64,000 nt of DNA from Alphaproteobacteria bacterium (GTDB lineage: Bacteria; Pseudomonadota; Alphaproteobacteria; JBKEAR01): contig JBKEAR010000003.1 of NCBI GenBank assembly GCA_047972425.1, positions 166,422-230,421 of the forward strand. The letters run 5' to 3'. This document shows, in pieces, positions 11,835 to 62,030 of this stretch. A model generated the notes under the pieces. The model ran no database searches, had not been told where the DNA came from, and worked only from the letters and a program-made list of their open reading frames with translations. Position numbers and translations under genes: made by a program. Each line of letters begins with the position of its first letter. The first letter of the stretch is position 1.

Positions 11835-11995
11835 TAAAGCTGCTACGGGGTACGTTAGCTATTTCTTCCCCGGGCCCTATTATCCACACGGGAGCTGTCA
11901 CTGTGAGAATCGTGGTTCTTTTATACGGCACCCACCTGCACATAATGCAGGCCAGGTGGTAAAGGAAATCGACGGCTTCCGTGGCAGCGAAAGTT
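11835..11995 (+). ncRNA. ssrS: 6S RNA (SsrS)
   Basis: About 160-nt non-coding gap between zapA and 5-formyltetrahydrofolate cyclo-ligase, the conserved ssrS locus. The terminal segments GCTGCTACGG and CCGTGGCAGC are complementary and form the closing stem. The interior is GC-rich compared with its surroundings. Confidence 0.65.
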
Positions 11996-29645: not shown

Positions 29646-32600
29646 ATGCGTATTGAGCGGAGCTTTACAAAGAGAGATCAAAATCCGTATGATTTAATTG
29701 AATTCATTAAAACGAATAGTGAGATTCGAAATCCGGATGGTTCAGTTGTGTTTCAGGCCAAAAATTTTGAAGTACCGAAACAATGGTCACAAGTTGCTGC
29801 AGATATCATTGCGCAAAAATACTTTCGGCGGGCTGGGATTCCGGCTTATTTAAAAAAAGTAGAAGAAGATGGGATTCCTACTTGGCTCCAACGCTCAGAG
29901 CCTGATAATGCACGCTTAAAAGAATTACCCAAAGCAGAACGCTTGATTGGTGAGACATCAGCACAGCAAGTATTTGACCGCTTGGCAGGTACTTGGACTT
30001 ATTGGGGTTATAAAAACAATTATTTTAATACCGAAGAAGATGCCCATGCTTTTTTTGATGAAATGCGCTATATGCTTGCAATGCAAATGGGTGCACCGAA
30101 CTCTCCGCAATGGTTTAATACCGGTTTACATTGGGCTTATGGTATTGATGGGCATTCGCAAGGACATTATTATGTTGATCCCCAAACCCAAAAATTAGTA
30201 AAATCTAAATCAGCCTATGAGCATCCACAGCCCCATGCATGTTTTATCCAAAGCGTGAATGATGATTTAGTCAATGAGGGCGGTATTATGGATTTATGGG
30301 TACGTGAGGCCCGTTTATTCAAATATGGCTCGGGTACAGGCTCTAACTTCTCTAATATCCGTGGTGAGGGCGAAAGTCTATCGGGTGGTGGAAAATCATC
30401 GGGTTTAATGAGCTTTTTAAGTGTGGGCGATCGGGCAGCGGGTGCTATTAAATCGGGCGGGACAACACGCCGTGCCGCCAAAATGGTGATTGTAAATGTG
30501 GATCACCCCGATATTGAACAATTTATCAATTGGAAAGTACGCGAAGAACAAAAAGTAGCTGCTTTAGTGGCTGGTTCTAAAGCAACCCATGCAGCATTAA
30601 ATAAAATTGTTGCGGCTTGCCGTGATTCGGATACCGAAGATTTATTTTCACAAAATGCCTATGACCCTAAAGTGAACCGCAAATTACGCCGCGCAATTTT
30701 AGATGCACGCTCTGCTATGGTTCCCGAAAATTATATTCAACGGGTTATCAAAATGGCTGAGATGGGTGTTGAAAAAATCGACTTTCCAACCTTTAATACC
30801 GATTTTACATCCGAAGCTTATATAACGGTTGCCGGGCAAAATTCTAATAACTCTATTCGGGTAACCGATGATTTTATGCATGCGGTTAATCAAGATAAAG
30901 CTTGGTATTTAACCTCGCGGATAGACGGTAGTGTCGTTAAAGAAATTTCGGCTAAAAGCTTATGGGAAGATGTCGGCTATGCTGCTTGGGCTTGTGCTGA
31001 CCCGGGTATTCAGTTTGATACAACCATTAACGATTGGCACACATGCCCGCAATCGGGGCCGATTAATGGCTCTAACCCTTGTTCGGAATATATGTTTTTA
31101 GACGATACAGCATGTAATTTAGCATCGTTAAATCTTGTGGCTTTTCAAAAAGAAGATGGCTCGTTAGATATTGAAGCTTATACCCATGCCGTACGTTTAT
31201 GGACCATTGTATTAGAGCTTTCTGTTGTTATGGCGCAATTTCCTTCTAAAGAGATTGCAAAGCTTTCTTATAAATTCCGTACAACCGGTTTAGGTTATGC
31301 CAATTTAGGCGGTTTTTTAATGTCGGCTGCCATTGCTTATGATTCTGATGAAGCCCGTGCCTTTACGGGAGCTGTAACGGCTTTATTAACTGGTATTGCC
31401 TATAAAACTTCGGCCGAAATGGCAGGGGAACAAGGGGCTTTTGAGGGGTATGCGGAAAATAAAAATGATATGCTCCGTGTCATGCGTAATCATCGCCGTG
31501 CTGCCTATGGCGAAAAAGATGGTTACGAAAACTTACACATCAAACCATTAGCGATTAACCAAGCCGAAGTTAAAGATAAGAGCTTACTTAAAGCTGCCCA
31601 AGCATCGTGGGATGCCGTGATTGAGCTTGGAGAGCAACATGGCTATAGGAATGCCCAAGTTTCGGTTATTGCGCCTACAGGTACTATCGGCCTAGTGATG
31701 GATTGCGATACAACGGGTGTTGAACCGGATTATGCTTTAGTTAAATTTAAAAAACTTGTGGGCGGTGGATATTTTCGTATTATTAACCAACGGGTACCTG
31801 TAGCCTTAAAACGCTTAGGTTATAGTAAAGAAGCAATCAATGATATTATTAAATATGCCGTTGGTTATGGCAGCTTAAAATCATCACCAACCATCAACTA
31901 TAATAATCTTGAAGAAAAAGGATTTGGCCATAAGCAAATTGAAGCTTTAGAGGTTACCTTAAAAGATGCTTTTGATATCCGTTTTGTATTTAATAAATGG
32001 ACATTAGGTGAAGGCTTTATTACCGAAACTTTGGGTGTGGACAAAAACTTATTGGATGACCCAAGTTTTGATTTACTTAAGCATTTAGGTTTCTCTAAAT
32101 CAGAAATCGATATAGCCAATAACCATGTTTGCGGTACAATGACAGTTGAAGGAGCACCCCATTTAAGAGATGAGCATTTGCCTGTTTTTGATTGTGCAAC
32201 CCCATGCGGGCGTATCGGCAAGCGTTTCCTTTCGGCTGAGGCACATATTTTACTAATGGCATCAGCACAGCCATTTATCTCTGGTGCGATTTCTAAAACA
32301 GTGAATATGCCGGCAAATAGTACGATTGATGAATGTTTAAAAGCTTACGAACTTTCTTGGGAAACCGGAATTAAAGCCAACGCACTTTATCGGGATGGTT
32401 CTAAATTATCGCAACCATTATCGGCGGTAGCTTTAGATGATGAAACAGATGACGAAGAATTAAAAGCTGCTGAAGTTGCCGAGTTACCCCAGCCGGATCA
32501 GGCTGTATATATTGCACAAAAACAAGTGAGCCAAATTTGGAAGCCAAAACGTATTCAACCACCATCGCGCCGTAAAGGTTATACCCAAAAAGCCCGGGTG

Positions 32601-33302
32601 GGTGGTCATAAGGTTTATTTGCGTACGGGTGAATATGAAAATGGTAAGCTTGCTGAAATTTTTGTGGATATGCATAAAGAGGGGGCAACCTTTCGCTCGC
32701 TCATGAATAACTTTGCGATAGCGGTTTCTATTGGTTTGCAATATGGCGTGCCACTAGATGAATATGTGGATGCATTTACATTCACACGTTTTGAGCCATC
32801 GGGTATGGTTGAGGGCAATGATTCGATTAAAATGTCGACCTCTATCATTGATTATTTGTTCCGTGAATTGGCTATTTCTTATTTGGGTCGCGATGAATTT
32901 GCCCATGTAACACCCAAAGAAATTAATACCGAAATGCTTGCAAAGCCATCGGCCGGATATATTCGCCAAACCAATATGGAAACATTTGAATATATGAGCA
33001 ATATGGTTGATGCCGATATGGATGAGGTTGTCAAACCCGTATCTGATGAACCTGCCGCAACATCGGTTGGTGGATTTACTATCAAATTTAAGGATAGTAA
33101 TGATGATAAAACAATGGCAAAAACATCGGGTGCAGCTGCGGCGATTGCTGTTTCGGAACGCTCTAATGAAGATAAAGCGGCTGAGGCAAAGCTTAAAGGT
33201 TACGAAGGTGATTCTTGCCCCGAATGTGGTAACTTTACTTTAGTCCGCAATGGTACTTGCTTAAAATGTATGACATGCGGTGGTACCACCGGTTGCTCAT
33301 AA
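29646..33302 (+). CDS. nrdJ: Adenosylcobalamin-dependent class II ribonucleotide reductase NrdJ (long alphaproteobacterial form)
   Basis: 1218 aa. Active-site SNPCSEY region ([14 protein letters not shown]). C-terminal CPECGN...CLKCMTCGG zinc ribbon. Size typical of Rhizobiales NrdJ. Confidence 0.9.
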
Positions 33303-37377: not shown

Positions 37378-38043
37378 ATGGTATCAAATAAACAAAATAA
37401 ACGCATTGGTTTTATCTTAATTACAATAGCGTTCATATGCGGTGGTATCCTCCTTTATCGGCAACTGGGTGGATATATGATTACCCCTGAGATTGTTTAT
37501 CCGCTTGTTCTTTTAGTGTGGTTTAGTGGCGGGGTGTGGGCGGCTTTTCGCTCAAATTCAGGTCAATTTATGCGTATAGCTTTGGGCTGGGTAATGGTTT
37601 TTACAGCCATATTTTTTGCCTATAATTTTTATCAGGATTATAAAAATCATCGTATTGCTCAACAAACAGAGGGGCAAATGCCTGATTTTGTAATGCAAAA
37701 AAAAGGTAGTCACTTTTATACCGATGCTTATGTGAATAATGTTCGTGTATCTTTTATGCTAGATTCGGGGGCATCAATGGTGGTATTAACAAAACAAGCC
37801 GCCCAAAGAGTTGGGATTGATGTTGATAAAATTAATGATCGTGTTTTATTATCAACTGCAAATGGTGAAAAGTTAGAAAAAGTAACTTATGTGGATGAAA
37901 TACGTTTGGGTGATATTATTGCAACCAATATACGTGTTGCAATTTCCGAAGAAGGGTTAGATGAAAATTTGCTTGGTCAAAATTTTATGAGTGAAGTTTC
38001 TAAAAAAGTTGAAGTCGGCAATGAGCTTCGCTTATGGAAATAA
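37378..38043 (+). CDS. Membrane-anchored retropepsin-like (clan AA, TIGR02281-type) aspartic protease
   Basis: Two N-terminal TM helices. C-terminal domain with FMLDSGASMVVLTKQAAQRVGI, an aspartyl protease DSGA motif. Confidence 0.6.
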   Translation: MVSNKQNKRIGFILITIAFICGGILLYRQLGGYMITPEIVYPLVLLVWFSGGVWAAFRSNSGQFMRIALGWVMVFTAIFFAYNFYQDYKNHRIAQQTEGQMPDFVMQKKGSHFYTDAYVNNVRVSFMLDSGASMVVLTKQAAQRVGIDVDKINDRVLLSTANGEKLEKVTYVDEIRLGDIIATNIRVAISEEGLDENLLGQNFMSEVSKKVEVGNELRLWK

Positions 38044-38654: not shown

Positions 38655-38656
38655 TA

Positions 38657-38683
38657 AAAAGCTCCCCAAATTGGGGAGCTTTT
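38657..38683. terminator. Bidirectional terminator between the LysE and helicase-domain genes
   Basis: AGCTCCCC-aaatt-GGGGAGCT hairpin flanked by A and T runs. Confidence 0.55.
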
Positions 38684-39787
38684 TTATTCATCTTCGGTCT
38701 CTAAAGTGGAATTTTTAAATAGTATTTCCTTAAGCATAAAGGCAGGGGTATGTTCCCCCATACCAATTATACGCCCTTGTGGATTACGACGAACCTTGGG
38801 TTTGGCCATTTGTTTGACTTCGATATCAAGCTTAATTTCATTATCGGCCGGTTCTTCAATAGCAGGTTGTTCAGGGGCAGTTACCTCTGTAATTTTATCA
38901 CTTTGGCGCCGCCGTGTCCGTTTTTTGGGTAAACGTTGCTCGGTTGTATCTGGCTTTGTTTTCCGTGGGCGTGTACGGGTTTTAGAAACAGCCTCAATAT
39001 CTGTTGCTACATCTGTTATTACATTGTCTTCAGCAGCTTCTTCAACTACAGCTGCAGCTTTGGCCGCTTTTGGTTGTTTCTTTTGCTTACTTGAAGGTTT
39101 AGCAGATTTTTTTCTTCTCGATTTTTTATCTGGTTCAGCTTCATCAACTGTTTTTACACCAGTATCATCAGCTTTTTCTTCAGCTTGGTTTCCTGATTTT
39201 TTTGGCTTTGCTTGTGTTGGTAATTTATCACTATGAAAATCAATACCAATATTGACATTATGATGGCCTTTTAATCGGCCCAACTGAAGATTAACATTTT
39301 TATCTAAAATATTTTGAATATATTTTGTATCTTCTGGGGAAACAAAAGACCAGATTTCTGCAGGTTTTTTCATTGATATTGCAAAAGATAAATTATCCAA
39401 ATAGTCTTTAACTTTGGTTGGTAAATCAAATTGAAGAATATGAGAGATATTGGTTTTGTTATCAACATCTTTTAGTTGTGCATGTGTTCCAACAAAAAAT
39501 AGTGATTTATTTTTCGCCGATTGAATTTTGTTTTCAATATCTTCTTTACTTAAGCCTTCTAAAGCATAAACCTGATCGGTAAAATCTTTGTCTAAAGATT
39601 TAATAATTGCGGTTACACTTCGTTTTTGATTACAGATGATAAGGCTTGTTTTTGTTTTTCTGTTCAAAATAAATTGGCGTAAAAGTATACGTTTTTTCGC
39701 CGATACGGATTCTGTACGTTTTTCCCCAGCTTTTAGGGTTAATATATATTGTTTTACAGAATTTTCCACTTTTGTGGGCGCATTCAC
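38684..39787 (-). CDS. Stand-alone degenerate DEAD-box helicase C-terminal (RecA domain 2)-like protein with a Lys/Arg-rich tail
   Basis: GTG start with GGAG SD. Residues ~30-170 align to DEAD-box domain 2 (KKRILLRQFIL...TSLIICNQKRSVTAIIKSL...LSKEDIENKIQSAKNKSLFFVGTHAQLKDVD...ILQFDLPTKVKDYLDNLS), but motif VI (HRIGRTGR) is lost. No domain 1, Walker A or DEAD motif. The C-terminal ~200 aa are polybasic low complexity (KKSRRKKSAKPSSKQKKQPKAAKAA...). Confidence 0.5.
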   Translation of the reverse strand: MNAPTKVENSVKQYILTLKAGEKRTESVSAKKRILLRQFILNRKTKTSLIICNQKRSVTAIIKSLDKDFTDQVYALEGLSKEDIENKIQSAKNKSLFFVGTHAQLKDVDNKTNISHILQFDLPTKVKDYLDNLSFAISMKKPAEIWSFVSPEDTKYIQNILDKNVNLQLGRLKGHHNVNIGIDFHSDKLPTQAKPKKSGNQAEEKADDTGVKTVDEAEPDKKSRRKKSAKPSSKQKKQPKAAKAAAVVEEAAEDNVITDVATDIEAVSKTRTRPRKTKPDTTEQRLPKKRTRRRQSDKITEVTAPEQPAIEEPADNEIKLDIEVKQMAKPKVRRNPQGRIIGMGEHTPAFMLKEILFKNSTLETEDE

Positions 39788-39938
39788 CGGATTTTCTCCT
39801 TTAATTGGTATTATAAATAAAAAATAAAATATGAATGAGGCTTAATAGTATAAAGCCCATAATTAATATTGCCTTTGGTTGTTGTTTTATCATATTGTTA
39901 TGCATCTTACAAAATATTAATTAATAAAGACATGGATA

Positions 39939-40634
39939 ATGAAGCAAAATCTTATTTTAATTCCGGGATTACTCAATGATGAACGCTTGTGGCGGCATCA
40001 AATTCAGTTTTTCGAAAATGATTACAACATTATTGTTCCTAAAATAAAAGGGCACACACATATCTCGGCCATGGCGAGGGAGATTATTGAAAATGCGCCG
40101 GAAAGCTTTGCTTTAGCCGGGCTTTCCATGGGGGGCTATATTGCTATGGAGATGTTGCGCCAAGCATCATCGCGTATCAATAAAGTTGCTTTTTTAGACA
40201 CAAGTTGGCTAGCAGATGATGAAAACCGCCAAAAAGATCGCCATAGATTAATGGATTTATCGGAAATGGGACGCTTTGAAGGGGTTACCGACTTACTTTT
40301 AAAGCAAATTGTTGCTAAAGAAAATCTTGATAATCCCGCAATTACAAATGTTATTAAAACGATGGCTAAAGAAACCGGGCAAAAAGAGTTTATTAATCAA
40401 CAAAAGCTTATTCTTTCTCGCCCCGATAGTGTGCGCGATTTTTCATCTATCCGGGTGCCGGCATTATGTTTGGTCGGGCGCGAAGATAAGCTTACACCAC
40501 CCCATATTTTAAAGGAGATGTCTGCAGCTTTAAAAGAAGGCATATATTGCGAAATTGAAGGTGCAGGGCATTTGCCCCCCTTAGAGCAACCCATTGCCGT
40601 AACGGCTGCTATGCAGGTTTGGCTAGGATTATAG
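39939..40634 (+). CDS. Alpha/beta-fold hydrolase
   Basis: GLSMGG nucleophile elbow. 231 aa. Confidence 0.7.
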   Translation: MKQNLILIPGLLNDERLWRHQIQFFENDYNIIVPKIKGHTHISAMAREIIENAPESFALAGLSMGGYIAMEMLRQASSRINKVAFLDTSWLADDENRQKDRHRLMDLSEMGRFEGVTDLLLKQIVAKENLDNPAITNVIKTMAKETGQKEFINQQKLILSRPDSVRDFSSIRVPALCLVGREDKLTPPHILKEMSAALKEGIYCEIEGAGHLPPLEQPIAVTAAMQVWLGL

Positions 40635-40708
40635 GCAAAAAGGCTTGATAGTTTTGTGATAGTTGCTTAAAATAGCAACCGAATTGAAAATATATTTTTA
40701 GGTATTTG

Positions 40709-41107
40709 ATGAAAAAAATTATTTTACCCTTAATTTTCTTGGCTGCTTGCACCCAAGAAACACCAGATTTTATGCAATCGGCTGGTGCAAATGCAAAGAA
40801 AGAATGCCCCATTATCTCAAGCGGGCAAACAGTGGCTGTTGCAAAAATTACCTTTGATAAACAAAGTTTAGAGCTCACATCCAAAGATCAAGAAATTTTG
40901 GGTGAGGTTGCTGATATGTATCAGAGATGCGGTGGTAAAATAGTCATTAATGGTTCAAATTCATCATCAGAACCTGCCGATTACGGTTTTTTACGGGCTG
41001 GAGTCGTATCTAAAGAGCTCGAAAAAAATCGCGTAAATCCAAATATCATGGATTTTCAACAAAAAAACAATGCAACCCGAGATGTTATTGTCTCATTTAA
41101 GAAATAG
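40709..41107 (+). CDS. Small lipoprotein with degenerate OmpA-like C-terminal domain
   Basis: Lipobox LAACT. Region ITFDKQSLELTSKDQEILGEVADMY...NGSNSSSEPADYGFLRAGVVSKEL resembles the OmpA_C pattern. Confidence 0.45.
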   Translation: MKKIILPLIFLAACTQETPDFMQSAGANAKKECPIISSGQTVAVAKITFDKQSLELTSKDQEILGEVADMYQRCGGKIVINGSNSSSEPADYGFLRAGVVSKELEKNRVNPNIMDFQQKNNATRDVIVSFKK

Positions 41108-54715: not shown

Positions 54716-54800
54716 GCGGGTGTGGCGGAACTGGTAGACGCGCTGGATTTAGGTTCCAGTGACTTCGGTCGTGGGGGTTCGATTCCCTTCACCCGTACCA
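54716..54800 (+). tRNA. tRNA-Leu (anticodon TAG), class II with long variable arm
   Basis: GCGGGTGTGGCGGAACTGGTAGACGCGCTGGATTTAGGTTCCAG... with anticodon loop TTTAGGT, long variable arm, GGTTCGATTCC T-loop, and CCA end. Confidence 0.85.
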
Positions 54801-54883: not shown

Positions 54884-56413
54884 ATGAAAATCAAAGAACT
54901 TAAAAGCGAAGGTTTAAGCCGTGAATATGAGATTGCCGTGCCGGCTAAAGATGTTGATGCACGTGTTTCTAATCGGTTAAGCCAGATTGGTCAACAGGTG
55001 AAAATTGCGGGTTTTCGCCCCGGTAAAGTGCCTGTGCGCGTTTTAGAGCAACGTTATGGCCAAGCAGCAATGGGCGAAGTTCTTGAGCAACTCGTCAACG
55101 AAAATGTAACATCATTATGGGAAAAGCAAGCAATTCGGCCTGCATTACAGCCTCAAATTGAAGTTAAAGAATATGATCGTAAAAAAGGGCTTAAATTTGA
55201 TGTGAAAACAGAAATTTTACCTGATATTTCACATATTGATTATTCTAAAATTTCTTTAACTAAAAAAGTTGCTAAAGTTGATGATAAAGAAATTAAAGAT
55301 TCTTTAGATAATATTGCTGCTTCAAATTCAGCATCAGAAGGATTAAAAACAAAACGTGCTGCCAAAGAAGGTGATATTACATTAATCGACTTTGTTGGCC
55401 GTGTAGATGGTGTAGAATTTGCAGGTGGCAAAGGGGAGTCTTATCCGTTAGAACTGGGTAGCAATATGTTTATCCCCGGTTTTGAGGATCAAATAGTTGG
55501 CCATAAACCAGGTGAAACATTTGATGTTAATGTAAAATTCCCTGCTGAATATGGTGCTAAAGAATTAGCGGATAAAGATGCAGTATTTGAAGTAACAATT
55601 AAAGAGCTTCAAAAGAAAGTACCGGCTAAAGTTGATGACGAGCTTGCTAAAAAATTGGGTCTAGCCGATCTGAAGGCTTTAGAAAATGCAGTTAAAGAGC
55701 AGCATGAAAAACAGTATGACAGTTATTCTAAAAACCATATTAAACGTGATCTCTTAGATGCTTTAGATGGCAAATATCAGTTTGATTTACCTGAAACTCT
55801 TGTAAAACAAGAGCTAGAAAGCATTATTAACCAGTGGAAACACCAAAAAGATCATCATCCTGATGCATTAGGCGATGAAGCTGATAAAACAGAAGATGAA
55901 ATTCGTGCCGAATATTTACCGATTGCAGAACGCCGTGTGCGTTTAGGTTTGGTTTTAACCGATTTAGGGCGTAATGAAAATATTCAAGTAACGCGTGAGG
56001 ATCGCCAACAAGCTTTATTTCGTGAGGCGCAGCGTTTTCCGGGGCAAGAGCAACAAGTTTTCGAATATTTCCAAAAAAACCCACAAGCTTTAGCTGCTTT
56101 AGAAGCACCAATTTTAGAAGAACGTGTGATTGATTTTATTTTGGATAAAGCAAAAGTTAAAGAAGAAGTTGTTTCTTTAGAGGAGCTTATGAAAGATCCG
56201 GATGAAGAAGCACCAAAAGCAAAGACAAAAAAAGCACCGGCGAAAAAAGCGGCTGCCAAAAAACCTGCTGCTAAAAAGGCGACAGCTAAAAAAGAAACCG
56301 AAAAGAAACCTGTAGCAAAAAAAGCAGCTACGAAAAAAACGGCTGAGAAAAAAGAACCTGCTAAGAAAGTCGTAGCTAAAAAACCTGCAGCTAAAAAGAC
56401 AACAGCTAAATAA
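54884..56413 (+). CDS. tig: Trigger factor with C-terminal lysine/alanine-rich (AKK-repeat) tail
   Basis: MKIKELKSEGLSREYEI N-terminus, PPIase domain GFRPGKVP. The final ~75 aa are KKAPAKKAAAKKPAAKKATAKK-type repeats. Confidence 0.9.
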   Translation: MKIKELKSEGLSREYEIAVPAKDVDARVSNRLSQIGQQVKIAGFRPGKVPVRVLEQRYGQAAMGEVLEQLVNENVTSLWEKQAIRPALQPQIEVKEYDRKKGLKFDVKTEILPDISHIDYSKISLTKKVAKVDDKEIKDSLDNIAASNSASEGLKTKRAAKEGDITLIDFVGRVDGVEFAGGKGESYPLELGSNMFIPGFEDQIVGHKPGETFDVNVKFPAEYGAKELADKDAVFEVTIKELQKKVPAKVDDELAKKLGLADLKALENAVKEQHEKQYDSYSKNHIKRDLLDALDGKYQFDLPETLVKQELESIINQWKHQKDHHPDALGDEADKTEDEIRAEYLPIAERRVRLGLVLTDLGRNENIQVTREDRQQALFREAQRFPGQEQQVFEYFQKNPQALAALEAPILEERVIDFILDKAKVKEEVVSLEELMKDPDEEAPKAKTKKAPAKKAAAKKPAAKKATAKKETEKKPVAKKAATKKTAEKKEPAKKVVAKKPAAKKTTAK

Positions 56414-61683: not shown

Positions 61684-61759
61684 GGGTGGTTAGCTCAGCT
61701 GGGAGAGCGACTGGTTTACACCCAGTAGGTCAGCGGTTCGATCCCGTTACCACCCACCA
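61684..61759 (+). tRNA. tRNA-Val (anticodon TAC)
   Basis: GGGTGGTTAGCTCAGCTGGGAGAGC D-arm. Anticodon loop TTTACAC. GGTTCGATCC T-loop. ACCACCCACCA end. Confidence 0.85.
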
Positions 61760-61854
61760 GATTTTTTAAAAATCTAAAATTTGGTTTTTCTAAATAAAAA
61801 GCTTTGACAAGTCTTTTTTATTTTTGTAAAACCACCAAGCTAATAAAACAACAA

Positions 61855-61931
<77 letters not shown>

Positions 61932-61953
61932 CTTGTTGTTATTATAAATATTA

Positions 61954-62030
<77 letters not shown>

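What the first reader, a model, noticed from the sequence alone, without database searches (positions are those of the whole stretch)
38684..39787. Stand-alone degenerate DEAD-box helicase domain 2 fused to a long polybasic tail
The 367-aa product starts, with a good SD and GTG start, exactly at the beginning of a RecA-like domain 2. The beta-alpha pattern aligns with RhlE-type DEAD-box domain 2 (TSLIICNQKRS / LSKEDIENKIQSAK..SLFFVGTHAQLKDVD / ILQFDLPTKVKDY). However, motifs IV-VI, including HRIGRTGR, are degenerate. There is no domain 1 anywhere upstream; only 150 nt of AT-rich spacer separate it from a divergent gene. The C-terminal ~200 aa are a Lys/Arg/Ala-rich low-complexity tail like those that tether RhlE-family proteins to RNA or the ribosome. 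A catalytically dead, domain-2-only helicase relic with an RNA-binding tail could act as an RNA chaperone or as a decoy for the partners of full-length DEAD-box proteins. I am not aware of this architecture being described.
Basis: partly seen in the sequence, partly recalled or inferred. Interest (0 to 1): 0.55.

Follow-up and report, generated by a model that had tools for sequence, protein, structure and literature searches.

The report
Helicase back half kept as gene
This is a real, conserved gene for only the second half of a DEAD-box RNA helicase plus its C-terminal tail; it has lost every ATPase motif, so it probably works without ATP, through the tail.

Summary

It is not a strain-specific pseudogene. 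At least six lineages of an unnamed, low-GC alphaproteobacterial group carry the same domain-1-less gene. All have the same synteny and the same GTG start, with dN/dS about 0.2 at saturated dS.

The closest relatives are four full-length, motif-intact DEAD-box helicases of 545-583 aa that carry the same unusual tail. In these genes the truncated gene's start corresponds to Val207 (GTG). It is preceded by Lys-Glu codons AAG-GAG, which form an internal Shine-Dalgarno sequence. These rare codons are conserved against codon bias, so the short form may already be made from the full-length genes.

The tail is not plain polybasic filler. It has three conserved islands, two of them predicted to be ordered, and it evolves as slowly as in the full-length enzymes. 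The RecA2 relic evolves about three times faster.

Best reading: an ATP-independent RNA- or partner-binding protein acting through the tail module. The biochemical function is inferred, not shown. It is a new variant of a known kind.

The parts
38684..39787 (-). CDS of 367 aa: RecA2-only DEAD-box derivative plus C-terminal module. NCBI protein MFV0321006.1, annotated 'hypothetical protein ACK5LE_01320'.
39785..39787 (-). GTG start codon. All six orthologues with DNA in hand use GTG here. It aligns with the Val207 GTG codon of the full-length sister genes.
39796..39801 (-). Shine-Dalgarno AAGGAG, 8 nt before the GTG. It is homologous to the Lys-Glu codons AAG-GAG of 'NPKEIIV' in the full-length sisters.
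39788..39938 (.). 151-nt AT-rich divergent intergenic region shared with the alpha/beta-hydrolase gene. It must hold the promoter. The consensus scan found no sigma-70 match on the gene's strand. A TATAAT about 22 nt upstream of the GTG is seen by eye only.
39293..39754 (-). Residues 12-165: RecA-like domain 2 relic. The fold is intact, motifs IVa, V and VI are destroyed, and motif IV (CNQKR) is kept. The family-specific basic loop TLKAGEKRTE..KKR is also kept.
39236..39292 (-). Residues 166-184: conserved island i, LGRLKGHHNVNIGIDF. Predicted ordered (pLDDT 91-96 with the deep alignment).
38831..39235 (-). Residues 185-319: disordered linker with alternating basic and acidic blocks (+12, -7, +11, -5). 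Fast-evolving and variable in length.
38903..38989 (-). Residues 267-295: conserved Arg/Lys-rich island ii (SKTRTRPRK...ERLPKKRTRRR) inside the linker. Candidate RNA-binding arginine-rich motif.
38702..38830 (-). Residues 320-362: conserved island iii, predicted as a small beta mini-domain (strands 322-326 and 353-357, pLDDT 83-89).
38732..38770 (-). Residues 340-352: IGMGEHTPAFML. This is the terminal motif shared with most alphaproteobacterial RhlE-like helicases (G342 95%, P348 100% and F350 100% conserved in 85 homologues).
38656..38684 (.). Bidirectional intrinsic terminator (13-bp stem flanked by A- and T-runs), shared with the convergent LysE gene. It makes the gene a monocistronic unit.

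Best explanation
The gene is a functional, non-enzymatic descendant of an alphaproteobacterial RhlE-like DEAD-box helicase.

Origin. In the common ancestor of a small uncultured low-GC alphaproteobacterial lineage, the 5' half of the gene (RecA1, which carries all the ATP-binding motifs) was lost. The breakpoint lay immediately upstream of the Lys-Glu codons of the inter-domain linker 'NPKEIIV'. Those codons (AAG GAG) and the following Val codon (GTG) already formed a Shine-Dalgarno plus start signal inside the ancestral ORF. That signal now drives translation of the RecA2-plus-tail protein from a promoter in the divergent intergenic region.

What the protein can and cannot do. It cannot bind or hydrolyse ATP, and it has lost the canonical RecA2 RNA contacts. 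Selection now acts mainly on the C-terminal module, which has three parts:
- a post-RecA2 segment (LGRLKGHxN..) and a terminal beta mini-domain carrying the alphaproteobacterial GMGEHTPxFML motif;
- a long charge-blocked disordered linker that joins them;
- an arginine-rich island within that linker.

Most likely mechanism (inferred). The protein is an ATP-independent RNA/RNP-binding or adaptor protein. It keeps the tethering or partner-docking function of the parental helicase's tail, towards RNA, the ribosome or the degradosome. The RecA2 relic serves as a folded scaffold.

Status of the steps. Shown: the architecture, motif loss, conservation, purifying selection, and the origin of the start site. 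Inferred: expression, RNA or partner binding, and the identity of the partner.
For: Architecture. RecA2 fold. Motif loss. No RecA1 nearby.

Age and orthology.
- Domain-1-less orthologues: P0002, P0005, P0006 and P0007 are syntenic. In every such locus the gene is divergent from abhydrolase, a 132-aa ORF, aminotransferase and homoserine dehydrogenase, followed by RecJ and a HAD hydrolase where the contig extends that far. P0008 has no locus data.
- The truncated clade is monophyletic (100% bootstrap) inside a 100%-supported family that also holds the full-length members P0004, P0009, P0154, P0155 and P0011.
- Only 8 representatives reach E<1e-30 among 1.84 billion proteins.

Selection.
- Whole-gene dN/dS is 0.21-0.26 at dS 1.3-2.1.
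- In the tail motifs, dN is 0.14-0.24 in the truncated genes against 0.13-0.18 in the full-length genes.
- In RecA2, dN is 0.26-0.45 against 0.09-0.17.

Origin of the start site.
- All six truncated genes start with GTG.
- Clade B keeps an in-frame K-E-N-N/R-V relic upstream of the start.
- Three of the four full-length sisters have AAGGAG-N6-GTG at codon 207; the fourth, P0155, has AAGGAA.
- These three are the only in-frame internal AAGGAG-N5-9-(A/G)TG sites in 34.5 kb of coding sequence.
- The rare codons AAG, GAG and GTG (usage 25%, 27% and 23%) are conserved there. In comparison, only 2 of 41 invariant-K columns, 1 of 26 invariant-E columns and 1 of 29 invariant-V columns are conserved in the same way.

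Tail. Islands i and iii are predicted ordered. The terminal motif is near-universal in 85 homologues.

Precedent for tail function. C-terminal disordered regions of RhlE proteins mediate RNA binding and condensate formation. The RhlE2 region alone is sufficient for interaction with RNase E (PMC11260450). Caulobacter RhlE and CCNA_01546 co-purify with the degradosome (PMC5472812).
Against: - There are no expression, binding or interaction data for any family member.
- The partner of the terminal motif is unknown. The motif string returned no paper in the literature library, and the tail matches no Pfam or PDB family.
- dS is saturated, so the dN/dS values are approximate.
- That islands i and iii pack together or onto RecA2 is inferred only from pLDDT and secondary structure.
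- One clade-B member (P0010) has a scrambled C-terminus. This could be an assembly frameshift or decay.
- All members come from metagenome assemblies.
Confidence: 0.6

Rival explanations
1. Regulator or decoy of a full-length paralogue. The short protein shares the tail, and possibly a dimerisation surface, with a full-length helicase in the same cell. It would compete for the tail's partner or form heterodimers, and so tune helicase activity.
Confidence: 0.2
2. Non-functional pseudogene remnant, or an assembly or annotation artefact of a broken helicase gene.
For: Catalytic motifs are destroyed. The window protein falls below the Pfam Helicase_C threshold. PGAP calls it 'hypothetical protein'.
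Against: The intact ORF, the same GTG start and the same SD are present in at least six independent assemblies that differ at saturated synonymous distance. dN/dS is about 0.2. The tail evolves as slowly as in the active enzymes. Synteny is conserved and the gene has its own terminator.
Confidence: 0.03
3. One half of a split helicase. RecA1 is encoded elsewhere in the genome, and the two polypeptides reassemble into an active ATPase.
For: The genome outside the 64-kb window could not be searched. RecA2 keeps the parts of motif IV (CNQK) and the D121-x-P123 element.
Against: The RecA2 residues that a reconstituted enzyme would need are all replaced. These are the motif V and VI arginines and the histidine, and the QxxR motif. 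No RecA1 lies in the window or near any orthologue.
Confidence: 0.04

Closest known systems
Full-length sister DEAD-box helicases of the same uncultured alphaproteobacterial group (P0004, P0009, P0154, P0155, 545-583 aa; more distantly P0011)
   Same: They have the same RecA2 subfamily features (KAG-loop insert, CNQKRS). They share the same three tail islands, including ERLPKKRxRRR and QGRxIGMGEHxPxFML. They are 32-38% identical over the whole 367 aa. The family has 100% bootstrap support.
   Different: They retain RecA1 and all catalytic motifs, and they sit at another locus (ftsZ-lrgAB-helicase-opuAC). Their RecA2 evolves about three times more slowly.
RhlE-type DEAD-box helicases with C-terminal disordered extensions (E. 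coli RhlE; P. aeruginosa RhlE1 and RhlE2; Caulobacter RhlE and CCNA_01546)
   Same: RhlE2, CshA and RhlE are the best NCBIfam matches of the full-length sisters, though all fall below the equivalog cut-offs. They have a basic disordered tail after RecA2. In RhlE proteins the tail binds RNA and drives condensates, and for RhlE2 it binds RNase E (PMC11260450). Degradosome association is reported in Caulobacter (PMC5472812).
   Different: Those proteins are active two-domain ATPases. No member lacking RecA1 is described in the papers read. The ordered mini-domain and the GMGEHxPAFL terminal motif are not described for them.
Eukaryotic pseudohelicases such as Utp25 (PMC9539457)
   Same: They have an SF2/DEAD-box-derived fold with degenerate catalytic motifs, retained for a non-enzymatic scaffold role.
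   Different: From my own knowledge, not checked here: Utp25 keeps both RecA-like domains and is a eukaryotic nucleolar protein. Here an entire domain is gone, and the organism is a bacterium.
Bacterial in-frame internal-start isoforms (for example ClpB-80, IF2-beta and CheA-S; genome-wide in bioRxiv 10.1101/520783)
   Same: An internal SD plus a GTG or ATG within an ORF yields an N-terminally truncated protein that lacks a domain. The full-length sisters carry exactly such a conserved signal at codon 207.
   Different: Internal initiation in the sisters is inferred from synonymous-site conservation only. In the window the short form is a gene of its own. ClpB, IF2 and CheA are cited from general knowledge.
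Isolated RecA2 domains used as protein-docking platforms (SrmB-RraA 2yjt, DDX6-EDC3/CNOT1, Vasa-Oskar LOTUS 5nt7, eIF4A-PDCD4)
   Same: These are structural neighbours of the model. They show that RecA2 alone can be a binding surface.
   Different: Those are fragments of full enzymes made for crystallography, not natural stand-alone proteins.

Membership tests
DEAD-box RNA helicase (SF2, functional enzyme) | RecA1 domain with Q motif, motif I (AxTGxGKT), Ia, Ib, II (DEAD) and III (SAT) | tested here: not met
   The protein starts at the inter-domain linker. There is no RecA1 in the 64-kb window or near any orthologue.
DEAD-box RNA helicase (SF2, functional enzyme) | RecA2 alpha/beta fold | tested here: met
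DEAD-box RNA helicase (SF2, functional enzyme) | Motifs IVa (QxxR), V (T/SDVAARGxD) and VI (HRIGRTGR) | tested here: not met
   The corresponding sequences are LEG..K..I, THAQLKDxD and DNLSFAIS. Only 17-27 of 72 conserved columns are kept.
DEAD-box RNA helicase (SF2, functional enzyme) | RNA-stimulated ATPase and unwinding activity | not testable with these tools
   Absence is predicted from the missing domain and motifs.
Pfam Helicase_C (PF00271) | Score at or above the gathering threshold (23.5 bits) | tested here: not met
   The window protein scores 16.2 bits, E=0.012. The orthologues P0002, P0005 and P0007 have precomputed PF00271 hits. Those of P0002 and P0005 are marked weak; that of P0007 is unmarked.
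Alphaproteobacterial RhlE-like helicases with the terminal GxG(D/E)HxPAF(L/M) motif | Terminal motif preceded by a basic disordered tail | tested here: met
   IGMGEHTPAFML lies at residues 340-352. G342, P348 and F350 are 95-100% conserved in 85 homologues.
Alphaproteobacterial RhlE-like helicases with the terminal GxG(D/E)HxPAF(L/M) motif | Phylogenetic nesting within the group | tested here: met
   In the NJ tree the extended-tail family has 100% bootstrap support and branches among Rhodospirillales-type helicases.
NCBIfam RhlE / RhlE1 / RhlE2 / CshA / DbpA / RhlB equivalogs | Score above the curated cut-off | tested here: not met
   The window protein scores at most 25 bits. Even the full-length sisters (about 365 bits) are below the cut-offs of 524-925.
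Pseudogene | Relaxed selection (dN/dS about 1), disrupted frame, lineage-specific occurrence | tested here: not met
   dN/dS is 0.21-0.26. The ORF is intact in at least six assemblies. The GTG start, the SD and the synteny are conserved.

The most novel reading that the evidence does not exclude
The RecA2-plus-tail protein is older than the truncation. In this reading, the full-length sister genes already encode two proteins from one ORF: the helicase, and a short ATPase-less isoform started at the conserved internal AAGGAG-N6-GTG at codon 207. The window's lineage simply fixed the short isoform as a stand-alone gene. That would reveal a helicase-independent function of the RecA2-plus-tail module, for example partner docking or RNA tethering via the GxGxHxPAFL motif. 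It would be relevant to the many alphaproteobacterial RhlE-like helicases that carry that motif.
Probability: 0.3. Interest if true: 0.7.

Novelty: new variant of a known kind. Interest (0 to 1): 0.55.

Why it matters
DEAD-box proteins are defined by two RecA domains that clamp RNA and ATP between them. A bacterial protein that keeps only the second domain, has lost all catalytic residues, and is still under purifying selection is a natural 'separation-of-function' allele. It isolates whatever the C-terminal module of RhlE-like helicases does on its own.

It also points to a short terminal motif, GxG(D/E)HxPAF(L/M). This motif is near-universal in the alphaproteobacterial helicases sampled here. 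Searches for three versions of the motif string found no paper in the library.

The gene also documents, at nucleotide resolution, how a new gene can arise from the back half of an old one by re-using an internal Shine-Dalgarno plus GTG. It suggests that some full-length helicase genes make a short isoform.

The limits are real. The carriers are uncultured, the family is tiny (8 representatives at E<1e-30 among 1.84 billion proteins), and the function is inferred.

Tried and rejected
1. Looking for RecA1 in the window, and in 6-8 kb around every orthologue, by tblastn: nothing found.
2. Deciding whether the full-length sisters and the clade-B truncated genes share a genome. GC and tetranucleotide correlation and flanking-gene dS were uninformative. 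Protein accession numbers of ten candidate helicases did not fall in the window MAG's accession range.
3. Naming the organism. Lon homologues show only unnamed MAGs at 76-100% identity, then Kordiimonas and Rhodospirillales at 64-68%. No order-level name could be assigned.
4. Finding the tail in known families. Pfam and PDB searches of the tail, and of a linker-deleted mini-domain construct, gave nothing.
5. Literature search for the terminal motif string and for RecA2-only helicases: nothing found.
6. The AFDB Foldseek library was unavailable, so I could not test whether other stand-alone RecA2 proteins exist in UniProt.
7. The JGI metagenome scan found only one ordinary full-length helicase.
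8. The sigma-70 consensus scan found no promoter in the intergenic region on the gene's strand.
9. The antisense 176-aa ORF at 38706-39236 (+) was ignored. I took it to be a by-product of the biased composition of the tail-coding strand.

Full report
**1. Observation**

The ORF 38684-39787 on the minus strand encodes 367 aa from a GTG start. AAGGAG lies 8 nt upstream, at 39796-39801. The stop codon overlaps a strong bidirectional terminator at 38656-38684, which is shared with the convergent LysE gene. Only 151 nt separate the start from a divergent alpha/beta-hydrolase gene at 39939-40634. tblastn with the RecA1 half of the nearest full-length relatives finds nothing in the 64-kb window or around any orthologue.

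Sequence similarity to helicase domain 2 is weak:
- Pfam Helicase_C: 16.2 bits, below the 23.5 threshold.
- NCBIfam RecQ and DbpA: at most 25 bits.
- PDB phmmer: RecQ 1e-4, Vasa RecA2 1e-3.

The fold evidence is unambiguous:
- AlphaFold2 with a 94-sequence alignment gives pLDDT 93-97 for residues 11-170.
- Foldseek matches eIF4A-CTD and YxiN domain 2 at E about 6e-9, TM 0.76.

**2. Degeneracy**

I compared the protein with 85 full-length alphaproteobacterial homologues. Over the covered region, 72 columns are at least 90% conserved. The truncated proteins keep 17-27 of them, while the four full-length sisters keep 57-59.

| Motif | Consensus | Window protein |
|---|---|---|
| V | SDVAARGxD | THAQLKDxD |
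| VI | HRIGRTGR | DNLSFAIS |
| IVa region | HGD..Q..R | LEG..K..I |

The following survive: K32-R33, motif IV C-N-Q-K-R, D121-x-P123, Y129, and the family-specific loop KAGxKRxE. With no RecA1 and no arginine fingers, ATP binding or hydrolysis is not credible.

**3. Relatives**

A search of 5.8 billion proteins gave seven hits. An exhaustive HMM search of 1.84 billion representatives gave only eight at E<1e-30, and the next score drops from 175 to 79 bits.

Domain-1-less members fall into two groups:
- Clade A: the window protein (identical to NCBI MFV0321006.1), P0001, P0002 and the fragment P0003.
- Clade B: P0005, P0006, P0007, P0008 and the damaged P0010.

Wherever a locus could be fetched, the gene lies divergent from the same neighbours: abhydrolase, a 132-aa ORF, aminotransferase and homoserine dehydrogenase. 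RecJ and a HAD hydrolase follow on the contigs long enough to show them. The truncated proteins are therefore orthologues.

An NJ tree gives 100% bootstrap support for the truncated clade, for clades A and B separately, and for the wider family that also contains full-length proteins. A single ancient truncation is the parsimonious reading.

**4. Full-length sisters**

P0004, P0009, P0154 and P0155 (545-583 aa) have intact RecA1 and RecA2 motifs. They carry the same tail as the window protein. They sit at ftsZ-lrgA-lrgB-helicase-opuAC. P0011 is a more distant full-length member at a third locus.

Beyond these, the next relatives are ordinary Rhodospirillales-type DEAD-box helicases. They share only the extreme C-terminal motif (V/I)xG(M/F/L)G(D/E)H(V/T)PAF(L/M). 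NCBIfam places the sisters nearest RhlE2, CshA and RhlE, but below every equivalog cut-off.

**5. Selection**

| Comparison | dN/dS | dS |
|---|---|---|
| Truncated orthologues, whole gene | 0.21-0.26 | 1.3-2.1 (saturated) |
| Full-length sisters, whole gene | 0.10-0.14 | about 1.1-1.2 |

By region:

| Region | dN, truncated | dN, full-length |
|---|---|---|
| RecA2 | 0.26-0.45 | 0.09-0.17 |
| Conserved tail | 0.14-0.24 | 0.13-0.18 |

RecA2 is thus about three times relaxed, but its dN/dS is still about 0.25. The conserved tail is unchanged between the two gene types. Constraint has therefore shifted to the tail, and the RecA2 relic remains a constrained fold.

**6. How the gene arose**

All six truncated genes for which I have DNA start with GTG. 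In protein alignments this position is Val207 of the sisters' linker 'NPKEIIV'.

At the DNA level, three of the four sisters read AAT CCA AAG GAG ATT ATA/ATC GTG (P0155 has GAA ATC ATT in place of GAG ATT ATA). This is an internal AAGGAG-N6-GTG. The truncated genes read AAGGAG-N6-GTG in clade B, with an in-frame K-E-N-N/R-V relic, and AAGGAG-N8-GTG in clade A. The Shine-Dalgarno sequence and start codon of the new gene are therefore former coding sequence.

In the sisters this signal looks selected:
- It is the only in-frame internal AAGGAG-N5-9-(A/G)TG in 34.5 kb of coding sequence at those loci. It is present in three of four sisters; the fourth has AAGGAA.
- AAG, GAG and GTG are minority codons there (25%, 27% and 23%).
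- Only 2 of 41 invariant-Lys columns are AAG in all four sisters. Only 1 of 26 invariant-Glu columns has at least three GAG. Only 1 of 29 invariant-Val columns is GTG in all four.
- The six codons before the Glu codon (198-203, ending with the AAG Lys codon) form the second-longest run of fully identical codons in the gene. The longest run follows the annotated start. Taken alone this run is only suggestive, since about 0.4 such runs are expected by chance.

More distant homologues lack the signal. I infer that the short form may already be translated from the full-length genes. Internal in-frame starts are an established bacterial phenomenon (bioRxiv 10.1101/520783).

**7. The tail**

It is 202 aa long, with 43 K/R and 34 D/E arranged in blocks of +12, -7, +11 and -5. 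It carries three conserved islands:
- Island i: LGRLKGHxNxxIxIDF (166-184).
- Island ii: an Arg/Lys-rich stretch ending in ERLPxKRxRxR (267-295).
- Island iii: a 43-aa segment ending in KPKVRRNPQGRxIGMGEHTPxFMLKEIxFKNSxL (320-362).

With the deep alignment, island i reaches pLDDT 91-96 and island iii reaches 83-89, with beta strands. Residues 185-319 stay near pLDDT 50. I infer a small ordered module split by a long disordered insertion. I could not inspect the coordinates. Neither Pfam nor PDB recognises the tail, and the motif string returns no paper in the literature library.

**8. Mechanism**

Shown: the protein is a conserved RecA2-only derivative that cannot be an ATPase, and its tail is as constrained as in active helicases.

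Inferred: the tail carries the retained function. That function would be ATP-independent RNA or RNP binding (via the arginine-rich island and charge blocks) and/or docking to a conserved partner (via the terminal motif). RecA2 would act as a scaffold.

The precedent comes from RhlE proteins. Their C-terminal disordered regions drive RNA binding and condensate formation, and for RhlE2 the region is sufficient for RNase E interaction (PMC11260450). Caulobacter RhlE and CCNA_01546 associate with the degradosome (PMC5472812). A 2011 survey reported that bacterial DEAD-box C-termini generally lack conserved motifs (PMC3093544). The motif seen here therefore seems to have gone unnoticed.

**9. Rivals**

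- Pseudogene or artefact: rejected on the evidence in sections 3, 5 and 6.
- Split helicase: unlikely, because the RecA2 catalytic residues are gone.
- Decoy or regulator of a full-length paralogue: this remains open for clade B. Full-length and truncated genes were assembled from the same runs (SRR26065833, SRR13488699). Composition tests could not tell one genome from two.
- For the window's clade A, no full-length sister appeared in the one binned representative genome or in the protein universe.

**10. Context**

The window is chromosomal DNA of an unnamed low-GC (38.7%) alphaproteobacterial MAG. By Lon, its nearest named relatives are only 64-68% identical.

**11. Verdict**

Its description of the tail is too simple, and its functional proposals remain untested. 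I rate this a new variant of a known kind, with interest 0.55.

Noticed in passing
L003:3391-3411, L017:8601-8621, L019:4849-4869, L018:2558-2578 (codons 201-207 of the full-length sister helicase genes): There is a conserved internal AAGGAG-N6-GTG inside the full-length sister genes (AAGGAA in L018), maintained against codon bias. It suggests that these genes also produce an N-terminally truncated RecA2-plus-tail isoform.
   Followed up: partly
window 54884-56413 (+): The trigger factor gene carries an extra Lys/Ala/Pro-rich C-terminal extension of about 65 aa (…KAKTKKAPAKKAAAKKPAAKK…). It hits the histone-H1-like HC2 Pfam model below threshold. Basic low-complexity tails may be a wider habit of this genome.
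   Followed up: partly
window 11837-11991 (+): 6S (SsrS) RNA gene, 54.5 bits against a 46.4 gathering score, lying between two protein-coding genes.
   Followed up: no
window 61684-62030 (+): A tRNA-Val(TAC) gene is followed by two tandem tRNA-Asp(GTC) genes with identical Rfam scores, downstream of lon. A tRNA-Leu(TAG) gene lies at 54716-54800, just upstream of tig.
   Followed up: no
window 40706-41107 (+): A 133-aa ORF with a lipoprotein-like N-terminus and no Pfam hit. It is conserved in position, between the abhydrolase and the aminotransferase, in every orthologous locus (132-149 aa).
   Followed up: no
window 29646-33302 (+): A 1218-aa class II (B12-dependent) ribonucleotide reductase with a C-terminal TSCPD domain.
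   Followed up: no
window 37378-38043 (+); L001 8183-9533: Retropepsin-like aspartic protease genes (Asp_protease_2 / gag-asp_proteas) with N-terminal membrane segments recur next to the SNF transporter in these loci. The gene is duplicated in MAG VLC_070.
   Followed up: no
window 38706-39236 (+): A 176-aa antisense ORF lies entirely inside the tail-coding region. I took it to be a by-product of compositional bias and not a gene.
   Followed up: no
P0010 (275 aa, clade B; no DNA available): This orthologue has a normal RecA2 relic and island i, then runs into unrelated sequence after about residue 225. This is either an assembly frameshift in the A-rich linker or a decaying copy.
   Followed up: no
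L021 2297-4144 (+): A TARA full-length helicase carries the RVIGMGEHVPHFL motif internally, followed by a further Ala/Pro/Lys-rich extension of about 130 aa. The motif therefore need not be at the extreme C-terminus.
   Followed up: no
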